Source: a virus (taxonomy: Duplodnaviria > Caudoviricetes). Taken from it: a DNA stretch of 64,000 bases. The translations under genes and the position numbers were made by a program. Below, piece by piece: positions 26,532 to 58,639 of this stretch. The stretch is from the IMG/VR virus record IMGVR_UViG_3300032086_001156, positions 1,093-65,092 of that record; one strand, given 5' to 3'. Under the pieces are notes generated by a model. It did no database searches. It worked only from the letters and a program-made list of their open reading frames with translations, and was not told the origin of the DNA. The stretch's first letter is position 1, and the number at the start of each line of letters is the position of its first letter.

Positions 26532-26608
26532 TGGCACCCCCGAGAGGACTTGAACCTCTAACCTACGGCTTAGAAGGCCGTTGCTCTATCCAGTTGAGCT
26601 ACAGGGGC
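26532..26608 (-). tRNA. tRNA-Arg(TCT)
   Basis: Cloverleaf GCCCCTG...; anticodon loop CTTCTAA; GGTTCAAGTCC; encoded CCA. Confidence 0.95.
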
Positions 26609-53087: not shown

Positions 53088-53117
53088 AGTATACAAAAAA
53101 GTGTGACCCATTGTCAA
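53088..53117 (-). promoter_or_regulatory. repeated sigma70-like early promoter
   Basis: TTGACAATGGGTCACACTTTTTTGTATACT. Confidence 0.8.
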
Positions 53118-53119
53118 CC

Positions 53120-53350
53120 CTATTTTACAGGTTTCATCAATCTTTCTAGTTTATCTTCTTTGAACTTTCCAGTGTTCACCCAAATCCTGAATGCAAAACA
53201 TTCGATAGCTTTGGTTGCACAGTCATTTACTTTTTTACACTTGAATTTCTCACAGGGAGATGGCCCCACGTTTTGAATTGCATCTGCAAAACTACTCGTG
53301 GGTGTTGAAGTGTAATACACTGGTGTTAAATCTATTGTGTTAATTCTCAT
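53120..53350 (-). CDS. small Cys-rich protein
   Basis: PCEKFKC....DC......CFAF. Confidence 0.6.
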   Translation of the reverse strand: MRINTIDLTPVYYTSTPTSSFADAIQNVGPSPCEKFKCKKVNDCATKAIECFAFRIWVNTGKFKEDKLERLMKPVK

Positions 53351-55689
53351 GCTATCTCCTGTATAAATTGATTCATTAAGTATCTAGAAGTCGACTTGTT
53401 CATTTGATTTCTCTTGAATGCAGTTGTCAATTTTGCTCTTGACTCACCGACTAATTCATCTGAGAGTTCATCATCCCCAGCAACTTCTAAAACTTTTGAT
53501 TGTGCAACGAACAGTTTACCATATCCGTGACATGGGATAACCGAACCTTGCTTCTTGATTTCTTTCCACTCTCTATCACTTTGTGAGTATGAGAAGTAAC
53601 CATCACTAATGCAACCTTTAAGGTTGTTGTATTCTTGTTTCTTACCTAGTATGAAGTAACCGTTGACGTTGACACTTGTCTCTGATTTCATCCACTCGAT
53701 TAGGTTACAAGTTCTCATGAAACCATTGTCACTACAATCATACTTGTAGGTTTTCTTTGAAACTTTATCAGTGATGTATCTGTCATTTCCATATCTTCCA
53801 CCTTCACCCCAGTCGAAGTGGTCATACTGGTGAGAGTAACCGTCTGTAATGAATGTTGCATTCATCAGGTCGACACCCCATGCTTTTTGTAACTTAGGAA
53901 GTGTATACCTTGCCCATACAATACTTGCATCAAGAGGTGTTCCACCTAGTCCAAGTCTTCTTGGAGTCCACCAGTCTAAGTTTTTTAGACCCAAGTCACT
54001 TCCGTATTGGTCATAGTTTTCGAAACCATCGTGGTCAATCTCAAACCAATCAACAAGTTCATTATATTTTTTCTGAGTCAACCATCCATATGCATCACCA
54101 GCTTTCTTTGCATTGAAAATTGCTCCGAAAACTTTACCTGCTTTGAGGAATTGTGATTTGGACATGTCACTTGAGAACCATTCTAGAAGTCTGATTGCAT
54201 CAGTTCTATATGCATACTCATTTGGTTCTACATTATCATCACCGTAAACATCAGAGAATGATAAAATCTTGAATGGGATGTTAACTTTTTTACAGAACAT
54301 CATTAGAATGAATGCTTGTTCTAGTAAGTCACATAGTGTATCTGCAATTGAACCACTGTGGTCAATGAAGACAACAAGACCGTGATTCTTACCTTGTGGT
54401 AAGTAAGTCATTCTCTTGAAGATGTCTTCTGAAATTTGATACTTGGAAAGTTTTGTTAGGTCAATCCTTCCAGTCTTAGAAGACATTGCTCTCTTAGAAA
54501 GATATGCAGACTTCTTCATCTCAAATTCTTTTGCCATGTGATTGACAATCTTTTTGTTCTTTGCTTCTAACTTTTTGAAAGAATGATTTGCAAAATTCCA
54601 GTAAGAGTCAGCTTCTGTTTTGTCTTCTTTGTTCTTTAGATTTTCTTTTAATGAATACTCAATAATCTCTTCCATTTCATCAACAGTGACGACTGCATTC
54701 TTTAGGAAGTACTGTAATTTTTCATCAGTCTTGACATCCATGTTTGCATAGATTCTTTCCTTAACTCTCCAATCATCGTTATCAACTTGGAAGTTTTGTT
54801 CGTTGTTGTGTGCATTTCTTTCAGTGATAGACTTCCTTGCTTGAGGTTTTGCTTTACCACCCTCAGTACCACCGTCTGCATCCTCAAATAGAGGTGTCTG
54901 TTGTTCGTTACCCATGTCTGATACATCGGGTAGGGTATCTTCTGAAGTCTCTTCAGTGGACTCTCCGTTCCCTGTAGAGGGGTTATCTGACTCACTCTCT
55001 TCTTCTACTTCATCACCGTCTCCACCAGTACTTGACCCAGTGTTTTCGTATTCTCCATCTTCATCTTCTTCGAAATCAAAATCAGTTAAGTCTGTAACAG
55101 AAACGACTTCTTCTTCATCACCCTTCTCATTTTCTGCTGACCAGTCGTATAATTCTTGTGCAATCTCTACAACCTCTTCAAAGGTTTTTGCATTGAAAGA
55201 CCTGTCATAAAAATCCTGTTCTATCTCATTAAGTGTAACACCTGAAGTGACACCTACTTTAGAGTAGAGATTGATTCTATCGATTGCAGATAGGTCTTCT
55301 AAATTCTTACCTGAAATACCAAAGAAATCTCTCTTCATCAACTCATCGTATGCTTTGAAGAATGACTTTCTTAAGCCAGGGAATTTGTTCTTAATCATCT
55401 TCTCAATTCTGATATCCTCAATCACATTGAGATAGTCCTTAAGAACTCTGTTGTCAATAAGTGTAGAGTGTAAACCCTCATATGGAGTGTGTAGTGCATG
55501 AGACACTTCGTGACCCATGAACAAGTCATACAACTCTGCAGACATATCCTCTTTGAATATTGGACAAGTAAGTACCCTGTTCTTAACATCGAATGATGCA
55601 GTAGATACTTTCTTATGTTGGATTGATAGATTCTCTGATGCCATTAGTTTTGCAAGAGAGTCTTTTTGGTTTCTTAGTAAATTTGTCAT
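53347..55689 (-). CDS. CobT-like protein: HExxH peptidase-like domain, acidic linker, vWA domain
   Basis: GHEVSHAL, D/E-rich linker, DHSGS MIDAS, GGTPL, ITDG; start trimmed to MTNLL. Confidence 0.85.
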   Translation of the reverse strand: MTNLLRNQKDSLAKLMASENLSIQHKKVSTASFDVKNRVLTCPIFKEDMSAELYDLFMGHEVSHALHTPYEGLHSTLIDNRVLKDYLNVIEDIRIEKMIKNKFPGLRKSFFKAYDELMKRDFFGISGKNLEDLSAIDRINLYSKVGVTSGVTLNEIEQDFYDRSFNAKTFEEVVEIAQELYDWSAENEKGDEEEVVSVTDLTDFDFEEDEDGEYENTGSSTGGDGDEVEEESESDNPSTGNGESTEETSEDTLPDVSDMGNEQQTPLFEDADGGTEGGKAKPQARKSITERNAHNNEQNFQVDNDDWRVKERIYANMDVKTDEKLQYFLKNAVVTVDEMEEIIEYSLKENLKNKEDKTEADSYWNFANHSFKKLEAKNKKIVNHMAKEFEMKKSAYLSKRAMSSKTGRIDLTKLSKYQISEDIFKRMTYLPQGKNHGLVVFIDHSGSIADTLCDLLEQAFILMMFCKKVNIPFKILSFSDVYGDDNVEPNEYAYRTDAIRLLEWFSSDMSKSQFLKAGKVFGAIFNAKKAGDAYGWLTQKKYNELVDWFEIDHDGFENYDQYGSDLGLKNLDWWTPRRLGLGGTPLDASIVWARYTLPKLQKAWGVDLMNATFITDGYSHQYDHFDWGEGGRYGNDRYITDKVSKKTYKYDCSDNGFMRTCNLIEWMKSETSVNVNGYFILGKKQEYNNLKGCISDGYFSYSQSDREWKEIKKQGSVIPCHGYGKLFVAQSKVLEVAGDDELSDELVGESRAKLTTAFKRNQMNKSTSRYLMNQFIQEIA

Positions 55690-55695
55690 GTTTAT

Positions 55696-55725
55696 AGTAT
55701 ACAAAAAAGTGAGACCCATTGTCAA
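55696..55725 (-). promoter_or_regulatory. repeated sigma70-like early promoter
   Basis: TTGACAATGGGTCTCACTTTTTTGTATACT, identical to the copy at 56444. Confidence 0.8.
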
Positions 55726-55904: not shown

Positions 55905-56224
55905 TAAGCTACCTCTGACATTAACATAGTGTATGGTTCGTAACACCCACTGACACCAATTGCAGAGTTATCACAACCTCTTCCGTCCATCCATATCTCC
56001 AACTCAATGTTTGCAAATGAATTAACTGGAAGGAATATTTTGTCAAAAGTAGTATCCATATTAGTCTCATAGATATCTTTATAGTTAGTCCTACTAATAG
56101 GTTTAACTACTAAGTGGTCATTGTTAACCTCGTAAACAATTGCAGTATACTCGACACCGTGAATTTTGAACTTACAGGTGTCAAGACCAACCTCTATATA
56201 ATTATCAAATAACATTATTGACAT
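55904..56224 (-). CDS. hypothetical protein
   Basis: ORF in the early cassette. Confidence 0.6.
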   Translation of the reverse strand: MSIMLFDNYIEVGLDTCKFKIHGVEYTAIVYEVNNDHLVVKPISRTNYKDIYETNMDTTFDKIFLPVNSFANIELEIWMDGRGCDNSAIGVSGCYEPYTMLMSEVA

Positions 56225-56415
56225 GCCTCCTCGAATCTTAACTCGACTAATGCATTGACAAACCCCTTGACTCCACCATTAGGACTAGGTACTTTGGCAA
56301 TTCCAAATTCTTTTTCTATAGCGAAGATGACATCCCAAACGTCACCCTTATTGACTAACTCAAGAACATCCTCAAGGATGTTTTCTTTGATTACTTCATT
56401 CACTTCACAACTCAT
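56215..56415 (-). CDS. hypothetical protein
   Basis: SD AGGAG directly after an early promoter. Confidence 0.65.
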   Translation of the reverse strand: MSCEVNEVIKENILEDVLELVNKGDVWDVIFAIEKEFGIAKVPSPNGGVKGFVNALVELRFEEACQ

Positions 56416-56443
56416 ATTTTCTCCTTTTCTTTATTACTCTTAT

Positions 56444-56473
56444 AGTATACAAAAAAGTGAGACCCATTGTCAA
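56444..56473 (-). promoter_or_regulatory. repeated sigma70-like early promoter
   Basis: TTGACAATGGGTCTCACTTTTTTGTATACT. Confidence 0.8.
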
Positions 56474-56479
56474 GTTTTA

Positions 56480-56773
56480 GTTGTGTCTGAGACTGTTCAA
56501 TGTCTAGGGTATTGCACCCTATTCTTTACACCGTGTCCTTCTAGTCAGGCCTTACCTGAATTTTATCAAGGTGGGTAGGTAACCACCATAAGAAGAGTCG
56601 TTTACCGTGAAATCCCCGAACCGACACTGTTCTTTCATCCACTTCTCTGTTCGTTCCTAGTCCATACCTCACAGTCATATATCACGTCTTAATTGATTTT
56701 AAAACAGTATGGGGAACTTCTCTATACGCACCAACCTCTCACAACCAACTAATGTGCGTCTCGTTCTTCCGAT
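56480..56773 (-). ncRNA. candidate structured non-coding RNA (~290 nt)
   Basis: Own promoter (TTGACA-N18-TATAAT, 56780-56809), several nested stems, no SD-led ORF. Confidence 0.5.
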
Positions 56774-56805
56774 TTATTAATTATATATAAAAAGTGGGGT
56801 TATTG

Positions 56806-57243
56806 TCAAGTACCTGAGACCCAAAAAGTTTCATACACCCAATCTTCTTTTCGGTATGCTTCTCGTTCCCATGGGGTTCTAGAGTATGGAACACCGTTAT
56901 AATCTTTGGTCTTCCATTTAAAGTTTGTAGGACTGAGTTGTCCTAACAGGAATTGTTTTGCATGTATCAACTCATGTGCAAGATTTAACATAATATAGTC
57001 TAGGTCAAATGTCTCATCACCTGACCCTCTTGCAAGTTCTATATCAATATGATTTTTATTTCCACTACAGAAACCATAACACTCATTGTCTAATCTGTTG
57101 TGAATGTAGATATCCACATTGACTACCCTTCTCATTCGAGGACAATAATGATGTATTACATTCTTAATGTATTTCTCAATACGAGATTTTTGTGCAATTC
57201 TGCCGTGAAAATCAATCAATATGTTCTTCTTAAAGTCATGCAT
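56806..57243 (-). CDS. HExxH metallopeptidase-like protein
   Basis: LAHELIHAKQ...PWEREAY. Confidence 0.7.
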   Translation of the reverse strand: MHDFKKNILIDFHGRIAQKSRIEKYIKNVIHHYCPRMRRVVNVDIYIHNRLDNECYGFCSGNKNHIDIELARGSGDETFDLDYIMLNLAHELIHAKQFLLGQLSPTNFKWKTKDYNGVPYSRTPWEREAYRKEDWVYETFWVSGT

Positions 57244-57288
57244 AAGGTGTATAATAACAAAAAGTGAGACCTATAGTCAACACAAAAA

Positions 57289-57378
57289 TGGCGGAAGATG
57301 AAGGATTCGAACCTTCGATACCCGTAAAGGTATGCCAGTTTTCAAGACTGGTGCATTCAACCACTCTGCCAATCTTCC
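57289..57378 (-). tRNA. tRNA-Ser(TGA)
   Basis: GGAAGAT acceptor, anticodon loop CTTGAAA, long variable arm, GGTTCGAATCC, CCA. Confidence 0.95.
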
Positions 57379-57381
57379 ACG

Positions 57382-57457
57382 TGGTGGAGCTGAGAGGGTT
57401 CGAACCTCCGACCCCCTGCTTGCAAAGCAGGTGCTCTCCCAACTGAGCTACAGCCCC
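57382..57457 (-). tRNA. tRNA-Ala(TGC)
   Basis: GGGGCTG acceptor with G3:U70, anticodon loop TTTGCAA, CCA. Confidence 0.96.
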
Positions 57458-58140
57458 TATCTTATTCTATTAAATGACCCGTACTCAATATCATTTTGGA
57501 CTACATCCATTGGTTGGTCGGGTCTCATGTCCATAGGGTTGGACGTAAACCACATAGGTATTGTGTACCTATCTGCTTTATAAACTTTCTTTACACCATG
57601 TTCGAATTTTAATCCTTCGAAGATTACCATCTCTCCTGCTACAGGTGTGTATACAAATTCTTCTTCGATACCTTCTTGTTTTGGAAACCACAATTCACCC
57701 CCACCATAGTTATCATTTAGATAACATATTGCAGCCCATTCTGTTTGTGGAAATATTGGTGGTGCATTAGGGTCGTCTGAACTTAAATCTGAATAGGTAT
57801 CGATGTGGGTTGGTTGGTCACTCCCTAATGGGAATCTCATAATCTCTGTTTGTTCAGGATACATTACTGTAGTTGTATGTTTTGCAATCTCATTGAGTGC
57901 AAGTGTTTCTACATACCTTAGAGCATCACGAACCATGTGTGTTCTGATATTACATAAATCTATCTTACGATTATTGTAATGTTCTGCAGTGTCGTAATTA
58001 CTTAGTAGATTCGGATGAGTCTTGTGGAAGTGTATTATGTTCTTCATCTGCGTGTACGTCAACACGTTCTTCTTCTTGATGAACCTTAGCTTCCTCTGCT
58101 CTCCTTCTGATTTCTTCAACAATTTTAAGTCTGGCTTCAT
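57457..58140 (-). CDS. prolyl-4-hydroxylase-like 2OG-Fe(II) oxygenase
   Basis: HID...ICYLNDNYGGGELWF...HGVKKV...RYTIPMWF; start uncertain. Confidence 0.85.
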   Translation of the reverse strand: MKPDLKLLKKSEGEQRKLRFIKKKNVLTYTQMKNIIHFHKTHPNLLSNYDTAEHYNNRKIDLCNIRTHMVRDALRYVETLALNEIAKHTTTVMYPEQTEIMRFPLGSDQPTHIDTYSDLSSDDPNAPPIFPQTEWAAICYLNDNYGGGELWFPKQEGIEEEFVYTPVAGEMVIFEGLKFEHGVKKVYKADRYTIPMWFTSNPMDMRPDQPMDVVQNDIEYGSFNRIR

Positions 58141-58639
58141 ATTCTAATCTCTTTTTTCTTTCTTTAGGACGAGCTTTCAATGCACGTTCTAATTTCAATC
58201 TTGATGCACGTTGGAGAAATACGATTCCATTTAAGTGGTCTATCTCATGTTGTATACATCTCGATGCAAGTCCCTGTAGTTGTTCACTTTGTGTTTCACC
58301 ATTCACATCTTGATATTCTACTTCGACTATTTTTGGTCTTTTGATAGAGACAAAGATGTCGGGAAAAGATAAACATCCCTCTTTCTCTAACTCTGTTTCT
58401 TGTGACACTGCTTTCAACTCAGGATTAAAGAATACCTTTGCTCCTTCTGTTGTCATCATGACACAACACTTCACGGGTAATCCCACTTGATTTGCAGACA
58501 ATCCTATACCGTTATACTGTTCACATAACTCAATCAGTTTATCTGATATTTCTTTTGGGTCATGAGACGGATTGTCAAAATCAAATTGTGGTGGTGGGGT
58601 TCGTAAAACTTTACTAGCTTCTTCTACTAATTCATACAT
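57998..58639 (-). CDS. def: peptide deformylase
   Basis: GIGLSANQVG, EGCLS, QHEIDHL. Confidence 0.95.
   Translation of the reverse strand: MYELVEEASKVLRTPPPQFDFDNPSHDPKEISDKLIELCEQYNGIGLSANQVGLPVKCCVMMTTEGAKVFFNPELKAVSQETELEKEGCLSFPDIFVSIKRPKIVEVEYQDVNGETQSEQLQGLASRCIQHEIDHLNGIVFLQRASRLKLERALKARPKERKKRLEYEARLKIVEEIRRRAEEAKVHQEEERVDVHADEEHNTLPQDSSESTK

What the first reader, a model, noticed from the sequence alone, without database searches (positions are those of the whole stretch)
56480..56809. Candidate ~290-nt structured ncRNA with its own early promoter
Seen: a GC-richer gap in an otherwise densely coding genome, between two early promoters. Minus-strand stems: ACGCAC/GTGCGT; GTTCC/GGAAC enclosing CCATAC/GTATGG and TGTTTTAA/TTAAGACG; GTGTC/GACAC enclosing GGTGG/CCACC and CAGG/CCTG; TAGGGT-GCAAT-ACCCTA; and a possible end-closing GAGAC/GTCTC. 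I see no tmRNA tRNA-like ends and no canonical RNase P GAGGAAAGUCC. Only an SD-less 45-codon ORF is present. Inference: an early-expressed phage RNA of unrecognised class (decoy, antitoxin mimic or ribozyme).
Basis: partly seen in the sequence, partly recalled or inferred. Interest (0 to 1): 0.7.

Follow-up and report, generated by a model that had tools for sequence, protein, structure and literature searches.

The report
New structured RNA of marine phages
The gap holds a gene for a roughly 285-base, intricately folded non-coding RNA that matches no catalogued RNA family, turns up on many marine T4-like phage contigs, and is present in ocean RNA libraries; its job is unknown.

Summary
Window 56490-56774 (minus strand) encodes a ~285-nt RNA behind a 12-of-12 sigma-70 consensus promoter. 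Folding energy alone shows nothing (z 0.05). Comparison does: a covariance model finds one copy in each of 91 IMG/VR loci and 80 metagenome loci. It finds none in 8 cellular-genome loci that share an 18-mer. A two-motif pattern has no match in 185,579 species genomes.

On 58 distinct sequences, 12 helices (61 pairs, two pseudoknots) are 94.1% paired. Of these pairs, 39 show compensatory changes, beyond all 500 shuffles and all slid controls. 108 of 292 columns are invariant, 79 of them unpaired. No ORF is conserved.

Five members give no Rfam 15 match. In the window the RNA and its promoter form a ~335-bp cassette that three close relatives lack. Contigs from four RNA-library studies cover just a relative's RNA. 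Function is open; I favour a trans-acting RNA that binds a conserved host machine early in infection.

The parts
56780..56809 (-). Promoter of the RNA gene: TTGACA (56809-56804), 18-nt spacer, TATAAT (56785-56780). The -35 box overlaps the stop codon of the 145-aa gene.
   Evidence: 12 of 12 consensus match. It is one of 4 matches in the window against 0.17 expected. Equivalent promoters stand before 59 of 77 family members that have enough upstream sequence.
56490..56774 (-). The RNA itself, about 285 nt. The 5' end is inferred about 7 nt after the -10 box. The 3' end is placed at the end of pseudoknot PK1.
   Evidence: Covariance model R1 matches window 56486-56782 at 276.9 bits, E 3e-74. 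Ends are inferred from the promoter and from RNA-library contigs on relative L027 that span 329-601 of a model match at 310-601.
56591..56770 (-). P1: GGAAGAACG (56770-56762) pairs with CGACTCTTCT (56600-56591). This long-range helix closes the 5' domain.
   Evidence: Helix 1: 9 pairs, 4 with compensatory changes, 83.1% paired. The figure is lowered by a one-base misalignment of the divergent subgroup. Coordinates.
56726..56759 (-). P2 hairpin: ACGCAC (56759-56754) pairs with GTGCGT (56731-56726). Its 22-nt loop contains the conserved AGTTGGTTG.
   Evidence: Six sequence variants. Five score 6 of 6 in the 65 of 80 distinct sequences the script reached. The sixth, the window's ACGCAC/GTGCGT, and the other 15 sequences were read by eye from the same output. 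Helix 2.
56653..56717 (-). P3 and P4. GTTCC (56717-56713) pairs with GGAAC (56657-56653). It encloses CCATAC (56712-56707) paired with GTATGG (56667-56662).
   Evidence: Helices 3 and 4: 100% and 99.1% paired, with 2 of 2 and 5 of 6 pairs compensatory. One search shows P4 extending to 8 pairs in other members.
56681..56697 (-). P5 hairpin: ATCA (56697-56694) pairs with TGAT (56684-56681). It lies inside the invariant TCAATTAAGACGTG tract.
   Evidence: Helix 5: 96.2% paired, with one pair switching G-C to A-U. This is the weakest helix of the model.
56490..56677 (-). PK1, a long-range pseudoknot. TGACTGT (56677-56671), in the P4 internal loop, pairs with ACAGTCT (56496-56490) at the 3' end.
   Evidence: Helix 6: 98.4% paired, 5 of 7 pairs compensatory. 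RNAalifold found it independently, as did the all-against-all column scan.
56607..56642 (-). P6 and P7. GTGGA (56642-56638) pairs with TTCAC (56611-56607). It encloses GAAC (56632-56629) paired with GTTC (56621-56618).
   Evidence: Helices 7 and 8: 97.8% and 94.1% paired, with 4 of 5 and 2 of 4 pairs compensatory. The window's P7 register was read from the sequence, because the model alignment misplaces it.
56570..56587 (-). P8 hairpin: GGTGG (56587-56583) pairs with CCACC (56574-56570). Its loop is TTACCTAC.
   Evidence: Helix 9: 100% paired, 2 of 5 pairs compensatory.
56530..56580 (-). PK2, a second pseudoknot. ACC (56580-56578) in the P8 loop pairs with GGT (56532-56530) in the invariant block.
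   Evidence: Three co-varying forms occur: ACC/GGT, AGC/GCT and AGT/ACT. Helix 10: 99.4% paired, 3 of 3 pairs compensatory. The unbiased scan also found it.
56545..56559 (-). P9 hairpin: TCAGG (56559-56555) pairs with CCTGA (56549-56545). Its core GGTAAGGCC is nearly invariant: 7 of 9 letters invariant, the last two at least 80% conserved.
   Evidence: Helix 11: 100% paired, 4 of 5 pairs compensatory. Conservation of the core.
56522..56543 (-). Most conserved single-stranded tract, TAGAAGGACACGGTGTAAAGAA. An exact 18-mer from it retrieved 57 loci.
56505..56521 (-). P10 hairpin: TAGGG (56521-56517) pairs with CCCTA (56509-56505), with a sixth T-A pair at 56516/56510.
   Evidence: Helix 12: 95.5% paired, with the second pair switching A-U to U-A in 27 against 27 sequences. 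Its 13 nt GGGTGCAATACCC equal the T-arm of the HTVC008M tmRNA; I judge this coincidental.
56486..56820 (-). The whole cassette, promoter plus RNA, about 335 bp. It is present here and absent at the same junction in three close relatives.
   Evidence: In L001-L003 the 145-aa gene (90% identical protein) runs straight into the promoter of the 66-aa gene. L184 has the cassette in the same place, with an RNA 93.2% identical.
56541..56678 (-). It is not a gene.
   Evidence: It has 4 hits among 1.84 billion representative proteins; one is spurious and three are short calls. The longest ORFs of other members differ in strand, frame and start codon.
56444..56473 (-). Next early promoter, for the 66-aa gene at 56215-56415. 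No terminator separates it from the RNA.
   Evidence: 11 of 12 consensus match. The same 30-mer recurs at 55696-55725, and with one change at 53088-53117. No minus-strand terminator was found in 56100-57500.

Best explanation
This is a gene for a stand-alone, highly structured non-coding RNA of about 285 nt. It belongs to a family that I found only on marine T4-like (Kyanoviridae, pelagimyophage-related) phage contigs.

Shown:
- The RNA folds into ten nested helices plus two pseudoknots. P1 closes a 5' domain that holds P2, the P3-P4-P5 arm and the P6-P7 arm. A 3' domain carries hairpins P8, P9 and P10.
- PK1 ties the P4 internal loop to the 3' end. PK2 ties the P8 loop to the invariant block between P9 and P10.
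- More than a third of positions are invariant, and most of those are unpaired.
- Most copies have their own sigma-70-type promoter, and two thirds have their own terminator. The gene sits at four or more different genome positions with no constant protein neighbour.
- In the window it arrived as a promoter-plus-RNA cassette between two early genes.
- A relative's RNA is recovered as short contigs from marine RNA libraries.

Inferred:
- Host RNA polymerase transcribes it early in infection.
- It acts in trans. Its invariant unpaired core forms a binding or catalytic centre for a conserved partner.
- My preferred guess, at about 1 in 5, is a component of the host translation or RNA quality-control machinery. 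The reason is that carrier phages lack the two-piece tmRNA that their cultured relatives express from an early promoter.
For: Family and structure:
- One model match in each of 91 of 91 IMG/VR loci and 80 of 80 metagenome loci.
- On 58 distinct sequences, 61 pairs are 94.1% paired and 39 are compensatory. The covariation score is 0.406, against 0.160 +/- 0.005 in shuffles (0 of 500 reach it) and at most 0.076 for slid partners.
- PK1 and PK2 were recovered by an unbiased scan of column pairs.
- 108 of 292 columns are invariant, 79 of them unpaired.

Not coding:
- The 45-aa ORF has 4 hits in 1.84 billion proteins.
- No ORF is shared across members.

Own transcription unit:
- 59 of 77 members have a promoter match and 62 of 89 a terminator-like site.
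- The window promoter is 12 of 12.

Strand: there are 199 G-U cells against 78 A-C cells, and the promoters and terminators agree.

Mobility:
- The cassette is absent in L001-L003, while the same phage record as L002 holds a 77% identical copy 8-14 kb away, beside the capsid gene.
- Contexts of 91 loci: 62 beside the capsid gene on the opposite strand, 15 after a CHASE2-cyclase gene, 7 by Hsp20/DNA polymerase, 6 by the metallopeptidase-like gene.

RNA libraries: contigs from 4 studies cover L027 329-601, 343-599, 329-598 and 339-666. One is a 273-nt contig at depth 34.5.

Phage-only: 0 pattern matches in genome contigs.

tmRNA complement:
- RF01849 hits 3 of 3 cultured relatives, which lack this RNA.
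- It hits 0 of 12 carrier records.
- At the syntenic exonuclease-gp33 junction, G002 and G004 leave only a 20-22 nt gap.
Against: - The window's own sequence folds no better than shuffles (z 0.05).
- The window copy has no terminator, so read-through into the 66-aa gene is possible.
- The expression evidence comes from a relative about 74% identical, not from the window's variant. It comes from assembled contigs, which cannot give strand, ends or level. No DNA run was laid beside them.
- 'Early' rests on promoter type only.
- The sequences fall into a few clades, so the counts of compensatory cells overstate the number of independent events.
- The tmRNA complement could be a lineage marker. 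None of the 12 carrier records is complete (23-81%), and only 3 non-carriers were tested.
- Nothing here shows a partner, a ligand or a reaction.
Confidence: 0.85

Rival explanations
1. It is a ribozyme or a self-assembling RNA-only particle, like the phage-associated ornate RNAs ROOL and GOLLD. On this reading it does not work by binding a host protein machine.
For: - The fold is complex and doubly pseudoknotted, with 79 invariant unpaired positions.
- No protein gene is constantly linked to it.
- tRNA genes lie nearby: 3 of the 91 IMG/VR loci have a tRNA gene directly downstream. ARAGORN calls tRNA-Glu in L019 and L037; L113 is read from the sequence. The window has tRNA-Ser and tRNA-Ala about 0.5 kb upstream.
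- That ROOL and GOLLD are phage-associated and form RNA-only complexes is taken from the abstract of PMC12286853 (listing) and from recall.
Against: - Five members match no ribozyme or ornate-RNA family in Rfam.
- At 285 nt it is far smaller than ROOL or GOLLD (sizes recalled).
- No cleavage site or multimer interface can be read from sequence.
Confidence: 0.15
2. It is an anti-defence decoy or sponge. On this reading it mimics a host or defence-system RNA, or soaks up a signalling nucleotide.
For: - It is expressed from an early-type promoter.
- It behaves as a mobile accessory cassette, present or absent among close relatives.
- In 15 of 91 loci it follows a CHASE2-adenylate/guanylate cyclase gene on the same strand.
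Against: - It has no repeats and no likeness to any toxin-antitoxin, CRISPR or retron RNA in Rfam.
- The model matches none of the 8 cellular-genome loci tested, and the pattern has no match in 185,579 species genomes. No cellular RNA that it might mimic was found.
- The cyclase link holds for a minority of loci.
Confidence: 0.12
3. It is an extremely diverged tmRNA or other tRNA-like RNA, that is, a member of a known class.
For: - Its distribution complements tmRNA.
- The window's P10 hairpin shares 13 identical nt with the T-arm of the HTVC008M tmRNA.
- PK1 is a 7-bp helix near the 3' end, the length of an acceptor stem.
Against: - ARAGORN finds no tmRNA.
- No tmRNA family appears at E up to 10 in five members.
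- The family HMM finds nothing in three phage tmRNA loci; the best E is 1.3, off the tmRNA.
- The P10 loop varies in length and sequence across the family.
- Eight conserved nt separate P10 from the PK1 strand.
- There is no conserved CCA tail, no conserved G-U at the third pair, and no conserved tag frame or stop.
Confidence: 0.04
4. It is a cis-acting leader or riboswitch that controls the gene downstream.
For: - The window copy has no terminator before the next gene.
- In 5 loci the metallopeptidase-like ORF starts about 25 nt after the RNA.
Against: - 62 of 89 copies end in a terminator-like site.
- 62 of 91 face the end of the capsid gene on the opposite strand, with no gene to control.
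- Downstream genes differ among contexts.
- In the window a full promoter stands between the RNA and the next gene.
Confidence: 0.04
5. It is a decayed protein gene, or it encodes the 45-aa peptide.
For: A 45-codon ATG ORF exists. A 45-aa protein 91% identical is on record.
Against: - All three frames carry stops.
- The ORF is confined to the window type.
- Substitutions follow base-pairing, not codons.
- Indels are not multiples of three.
- Only 4 protein hits exist.
Confidence: 0.01

Closest known systems
Large 'ornate' bacterial and phage non-coding RNAs of unknown function (ROOL, GOLLD; also OLE, raiA)
   Same: - A complex multi-helix fold with pseudoknots and many invariant unpaired nucleotides.
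- Phage-borne, sometimes beside tRNA genes.
- No partner protein gene.
- Known from comparative analysis of metagenomes.
   Different: - No sequence or structure match to any of them in Rfam 15.
- Much smaller, about 285 nt.
- Restricted to marine T4-like phages.
- Carries its own consensus early promoter.
Two-piece (permuted) tmRNA of pelagimyophages (Melnitz, Mosig, HTVC008M; PMC9004378, passages read)
   Same: - A structured RNA of about 300 nt, behind an early promoter in the same phage family.
- Complementary occurrence in the genomes tested.
   Different: - No tRNA-like domain with a CCA end, no tag frame, and no model or HMM similarity.
- A different genome position.
Stable RNAs C and D (species 1 and 2) of phage T4, encoded in its tRNA cluster (recalled from general knowledge; no sequence compared)
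   Same: Small stable RNAs of unknown function in a T4-type phage, encoded near tRNA genes.
   Different: They are shorter, about 120-140 nt as recalled, and are co-transcribed with the tRNAs. I held no sequence to compare, so any relationship is untested.
Mobile early-promoter cassettes of T4-type phages (modular shuffling at early promoters; recalled, no paper read)
   Same: The RNA and its promoter form an indel between two nearly identical early promoters.
   Different: Those cassettes, as recalled, carry small protein ORFs. This one carries an RNA gene.

Membership tests
tmRNA (standard RF00023, alpha two-piece RF01849, permuted RF04321) | Match to a tmRNA covariance model, or detection by ARAGORN | tested here: not met
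   - No tmRNA family at E up to 10 in five members.
- ARAGORN finds only tRNAs.
- In carrier records, RF01849 hits 0 of 12 tested.
- RF04321 (3 records) and RF00023 (5 records) give only tRNA-sized hits below the cut-off.
tmRNA | A tRNA-like domain: acceptor stem continuous with the T-arm, G-U at the third pair, 3' CCA | tested here: not met
   - Eight conserved nt separate P10 from the PK1 3' strand.
- No G-U is fixed at the third PK1 pair.
- The tails after PK1 differ and lack a shared CCA.
tmRNA | A tag reading frame with a conserved stop | tested here: not met
   No frame or stop is conserved across subgroups.
Bacterial RNase P RNA | The conserved P4 strands (GGAAAGUCC-type and ACAGAA...GGCUUA-type, recalled) and a match to the RNase P models | tested here: not met
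   No RNase P family at E up to 10 in five members. P1 here pairs AGGAAAU-type with AUUUCUU-type strands that co-vary freely.
Group I intron | Interrupts a gene, has the P3-P7 pseudoknot core, and matches RF00028 | tested here: not met
   It stands between genes with its own promoter and terminator. No Rfam match.
ROOL / GOLLD / OLE / raiA / HEARO / IMES and other catalogued large RNAs | Match to the family's covariance model | tested here: not met
   None is listed at E up to 10 in five members.
Riboswitch or cis-regulatory leader | A constant position upstream of a regulated gene on the same strand | tested here: not met
   62 of 91 copies converge on the capsid gene from the opposite strand. 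62 of 89 end in a terminator-like site.
T4 stable RNAs C and D | Sequence or structure likeness to T4 rnaC or rnaD | not tested
   I fetched no sequence of these RNAs. I did not check whether Rfam holds them.

The most novel reading that the evidence does not exclude
This is a new class of catalytic or ribosome-targeting RNA that marine myophages deploy at the start of infection. In the lineages that carry it, it takes over the role that a phage-encoded tmRNA plays in their relatives: handling stalled or host-engaged ribosomes. It does so by a mechanism unrelated to trans-translation.
Probability: 0.15. Interest if true: 0.95.

Novelty: categorically new. Interest (0 to 1): 0.82.

Why it matters
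New RNA classes of this size and complexity are rare. Each earlier one (RNase P, tmRNA, riboswitch classes, ROOL, GOLLD) opened a line of biochemistry. This one combines several useful properties:
- It is well defined: 12 helices, two pseudoknots and 108 invariant positions.
- It is confined to phages related to those that infect the most abundant marine heterotrophs.
- It is recovered from ocean RNA libraries of four studies.

A ready covariance model and consensus make it directly testable by structure probing, cryo-EM and pull-downs. It also gives a marker for a large uncultured phage group. If the tmRNA complement is functional, it bears on how phages manage host translation.

Tried and rejected
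- **Single-sequence folding.** It gave no signal on either strand.
- **blastn against named phages.** Three different members found nothing real.
- **A 17-mer from P10.** It gave 9 IMG/VR loci that share nothing else with the element.
- **The 18-mer in cellular genomes.** It gave 8 loci, about what chance predicts by my own estimate. The model finds nothing in them.
- **The search for related loci with the 45-aa ORF.** Not possible: the query was too short.
- **Relatives of a virus record.** Cannot be drawn.
- **Homology to phage tmRNA.** I noticed shared 8-13-mers by eye. The family HMM found nothing at the tmRNA, so I treat them as chance.
- **GTCTCAG repeat.** A 7-nt direct repeat at both ends of the window cassette is not kept in L184, so I dropped it.
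- **Start-stop reading.** I considered GTG-TAA in the invariant block, behind AAGGA. I rejected it because the G that would start it co-varies with the P8 loop.
- **Likeness of the invariant block to rRNA, and of several motifs to E. coli RNase P RNA.** These were recalled, not tested, and no Rfam match supports them.
- **Literature searches.** They found no description of this RNA. The first was badly framed and useless. One motif hit is a primer in an unrelated paper.
- **Flanks in RNA libraries.** The flanks of the RNA on L027 (230-328, and 602-720 in 3 of 4 runs) had no contig cover.

Full report
**What is at the site.** On the minus strand, a 145-aa gene (56806-57243) is followed by about 390 nt and then a 66-aa gene (56215-56415). 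The 145-aa product is HExxH metallopeptidase-like, with weak SprT-like and DUF6782 hits.
- The gap carries only a 45-codon ORF, and every frame has stops.
- It is slightly GC-richer than its flanks.
- It starts with a perfect sigma-70 promoter (56809-56780, 12 of 12) and ends at the next one (56473-56444, 11 of 12).
- Rfam 15 finds only three tRNAs in the whole window at gathering scores, and nothing credible in the gap at E up to 10.
- The window's RNA is no more stable than shuffled sequence, z 0.05. The stems seen by eye are therefore no evidence on their own.

**The comparison that decides it.** Three IMG/VR contigs encode a 90% identical 145-aa protein but lack the gap. There, the gene runs directly into the promoter of the 66-aa gene. 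The promoter plus the ~290 nt is thus a ~335-bp cassette.
- The 135-kb record behind one of these contigs holds a 77% identical copy elsewhere, between small ORFs and the major capsid gene. That copy has its own TTGACA...TATACT promoter and a rho-independent terminator.
- An 18-mer from the most conserved tract retrieved 57 IMG/VR loci.
- A second, independent two-motif pattern retrieved 84 stretches, 33 of the listed loci being new. It retrieved 81 stretches in metagenome contigs and none in one genome each of 185,579 prokaryote species.
- Covariance model R1 matches once in each of 91 of 91 IMG/VR loci and 80 of 80 metagenome loci. Some metagenome and IMG/VR loci are the same contigs, so the two counts must not be added.
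- The model matches none of the 9 loci that share only a 17-mer, and none of the 8 cellular-genome loci that share only the 18-mer.
- Whole genomes of Melnitz, Mosig and HTVC008M have no copy. These are the nearest cultured phages by capsid protein, 63-64.5% identical.
- A metagenome contig (L184) has a copy 93.2% identical to the window's, in the same place.

**Structure.** RNAalifold on 27 sequences gave 35 pairs, 18 with compensatory changes, including a long-range helix. I extended this by inspection and by an all-against-all scan of columns. I tested the result on the model alignment of 91 sequences, 58 of them distinct.
- There are 61 pairs in 12 helices, and 94.1% of 3,285 cells are paired, against 77.7% in shuffles.
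- 39 pairs have changes on both sides, against 29.4 in shuffles.
- The covariation score is 0.406 against 0.160 +/- 0.005. No shuffle of 500 reaches the observed value on any of the five measures.
- Sliding the partners by 1-3 columns drops pairing to 33-46% and the score to at most 0.076.
- P2 exists in six fully complementary versions.
- PK1 pairs the P4 internal loop with the 3' end; 5 of its 7 pairs are compensatory.
- PK2 pairs three bases of the P8 loop with the invariant block, in three co-varying forms.
- P1 and P2 score lower (83% and 78%) because the model alignment keeps a one-base shift in the divergent subgroup, which I could not correct inside the tools.
- The sequences form a few clades, so cells overstate the number of independent events. 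The number of distinct pair types per position is the safer guide.
- 108 of 292 columns are invariant in 49 full-length distinct sequences, and 79 of these are unpaired.
- Four loci carry an expansion of about 95 nt in the P4 internal loop.

Six are right. GTGTC/GACAC and GAGAC/GTCTC are not kept in relatives. TGTTTTAA/TTAAGACG is mostly invariant and cannot be judged.

**Not coding.** The 45-aa ORF has 4 hits in 1.84 billion representative proteins. One is a 91% identical 45-mer, two are short ORFs at 57-58%, and one is spurious. The longest ORFs of 25 distinct members differ in strand, frame and start codon.

**Transcription unit and strand.** Of 77 members with enough upstream sequence, 59 have a -35/-10 match. 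Several of the rest show TGGTATAAT, which I read as extended -10 boxes.
- Of 89 with 130 nt downstream, 62 have a terminator-like hairpin and T-run, at a median 33 nt after the model end.
- The others, like the window, run into another early promoter, a tRNA-Glu gene or an ORF.
- G-U cells outnumber A-C cells 199 to 78, which favours the promoter strand.

**RNA libraries.** For the commonest variant (L027; the nearest L027-like copies are about 74% identical to the window's RNA), runs on record as metatranscriptomes hold a third to a half of the sampled words of a 491-nt stretch.
- Contigs of four such runs from four studies lie on 329-601 (a 273-nt contig, depth 34.5), 343-554 and 449-599, 329-538 and 509-598, and 339-666. 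The model match on L027 is 310-601.
- Two studies start at 329 and three stop at 598-601. This is only a weak hint of ends: contigs show neither strand, ends nor level, and I laid no DNA run beside them.

**Context and mobility.** Among 91 loci, 62 lie just past the end of the major capsid gene on the opposite strand. 15 follow a CHASE2-adenylate/guanylate cyclase gene, 7 lie by Hsp20 and DNA polymerase, and 6 are next to the metallopeptidase-like gene, as in the window. No protein gene is constant, so a dedicated protein partner encoded alongside is unlikely.

**Comparison with known RNAs.** Five diverse members give no real Rfam match. The closest thing in these phages is the two-piece tmRNA, described for Melnitz as lying just after an early promoter (PMC9004378, passages).
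- RF01849 finds it in Melnitz, Mosig and HTVC008M but in none of 12 records that carry the new RNA. Those records total about 1 Mb at 23-81% completeness.
- In the cultured phages the tmRNA lies between an exonuclease gene and the late-transcription coactivator gene, sometimes with a small ORF between. In G002 and G004 those two genes are 20-22 nt apart.
- The new RNA is nevertheless not a tmRNA. There is no model or HMM likeness, no continuous acceptor/T-arm, no CCA and no tag frame.
- The 13-nt identity of the window's P10 with the HTVC008M T-arm is not shared by other members.

**Mechanism.** The following is shown: a conserved, compact, doubly pseudoknotted fold, an autonomous and mobile gene, and presence in RNA libraries. 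The following is inferred: early transcription by host polymerase, action in trans, and a binding or catalytic core made of the invariant unpaired tracts. I put about 0.2 on a role at the host translation or RNA quality-control machinery, 0.15 on a ribozyme or RNA-only assembly, and 0.12 on an anti-defence decoy. The remainder is open.

**Novelty.** I found no description in five literature searches or in the two pelagimyophage papers I searched for RNA terms. Supplements and subscription papers were out of reach.

Noticed in passing
L026:2105-3946 (+), and 14 other loci upstream of the RNA: A 610-614-aa phage gene with a CHASE2 sensor domain fused to an adenylate/guanylate cyclase domain (Pfam E 4e-39 and 1e-19). 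It stands directly upstream of the RNA, on the same strand, in 15 of 91 loci.
   Followed up: partly
window 53088-53117, 55696-55725, 56444-56473 (minus strand): Nearly identical 30-nt early promoters (TTGACAATGGGTCTCACTTTTTTGTATACT, one with a single change) precede successive small genes. The RNA cassette is an indel exactly at one of them, which suggests recombination between promoter copies.
   Followed up: partly
G002:C1:98051-98858 and G004:C1:13678-14495: The exonuclease and late-transcription coactivator genes abut (20-22 nt gap). In Melnitz, Mosig and HTVC008M a two-piece tmRNA lies between the same two genes. None of 12 records carrying the new RNA has a recognisable tmRNA.
   Followed up: partly
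L122:425-814, L137:7286-7675, L143:1108-1497, L153:5653-6042: Four copies of the RNA are about 390 nt long, owing to an insertion of about 95 nt in the P4 internal loop. Rfam finds nothing in it.
   Followed up: partly
L027:602-700 and like loci (L033, L034, L046, L051): In one subgroup about 70 nt lie between the RNA and its terminator. They hold a Shine-Dalgarno-like AAGGA and a 9-codon ORF. One RNA-library contig (X7) runs through to 666, while three stop near 600.
   Followed up: no
L019:7088-7162, L037:5318-5392, L113 (downstream of 1942): A tRNA-Glu gene starts about 10-15 nt after the RNA. RNase P cleavage of the tRNA would therefore set the RNA's 3' end in these phages.
   Followed up: no
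window 57289-57457 and 26532-26608: The window holds tRNA-Ser(TGA) and tRNA-Ala(TGC) in tandem just upstream of the 145-aa gene, and a tRNA-Arg(TCT) elsewhere. The standard tmRNA model picks up the tRNA-Ala genes below its cut-off in four carrier records.
   Followed up: partly
window 57457-58639 (minus strand): Peptide deformylase (Pfam E 1e-39) and a 2OG-Fe(II) oxygenase gene lie just upstream of the tRNAs. A 792-aa peptidase-like gene (PHROG 459) lies downstream at 53347-55725.
   Followed up: no
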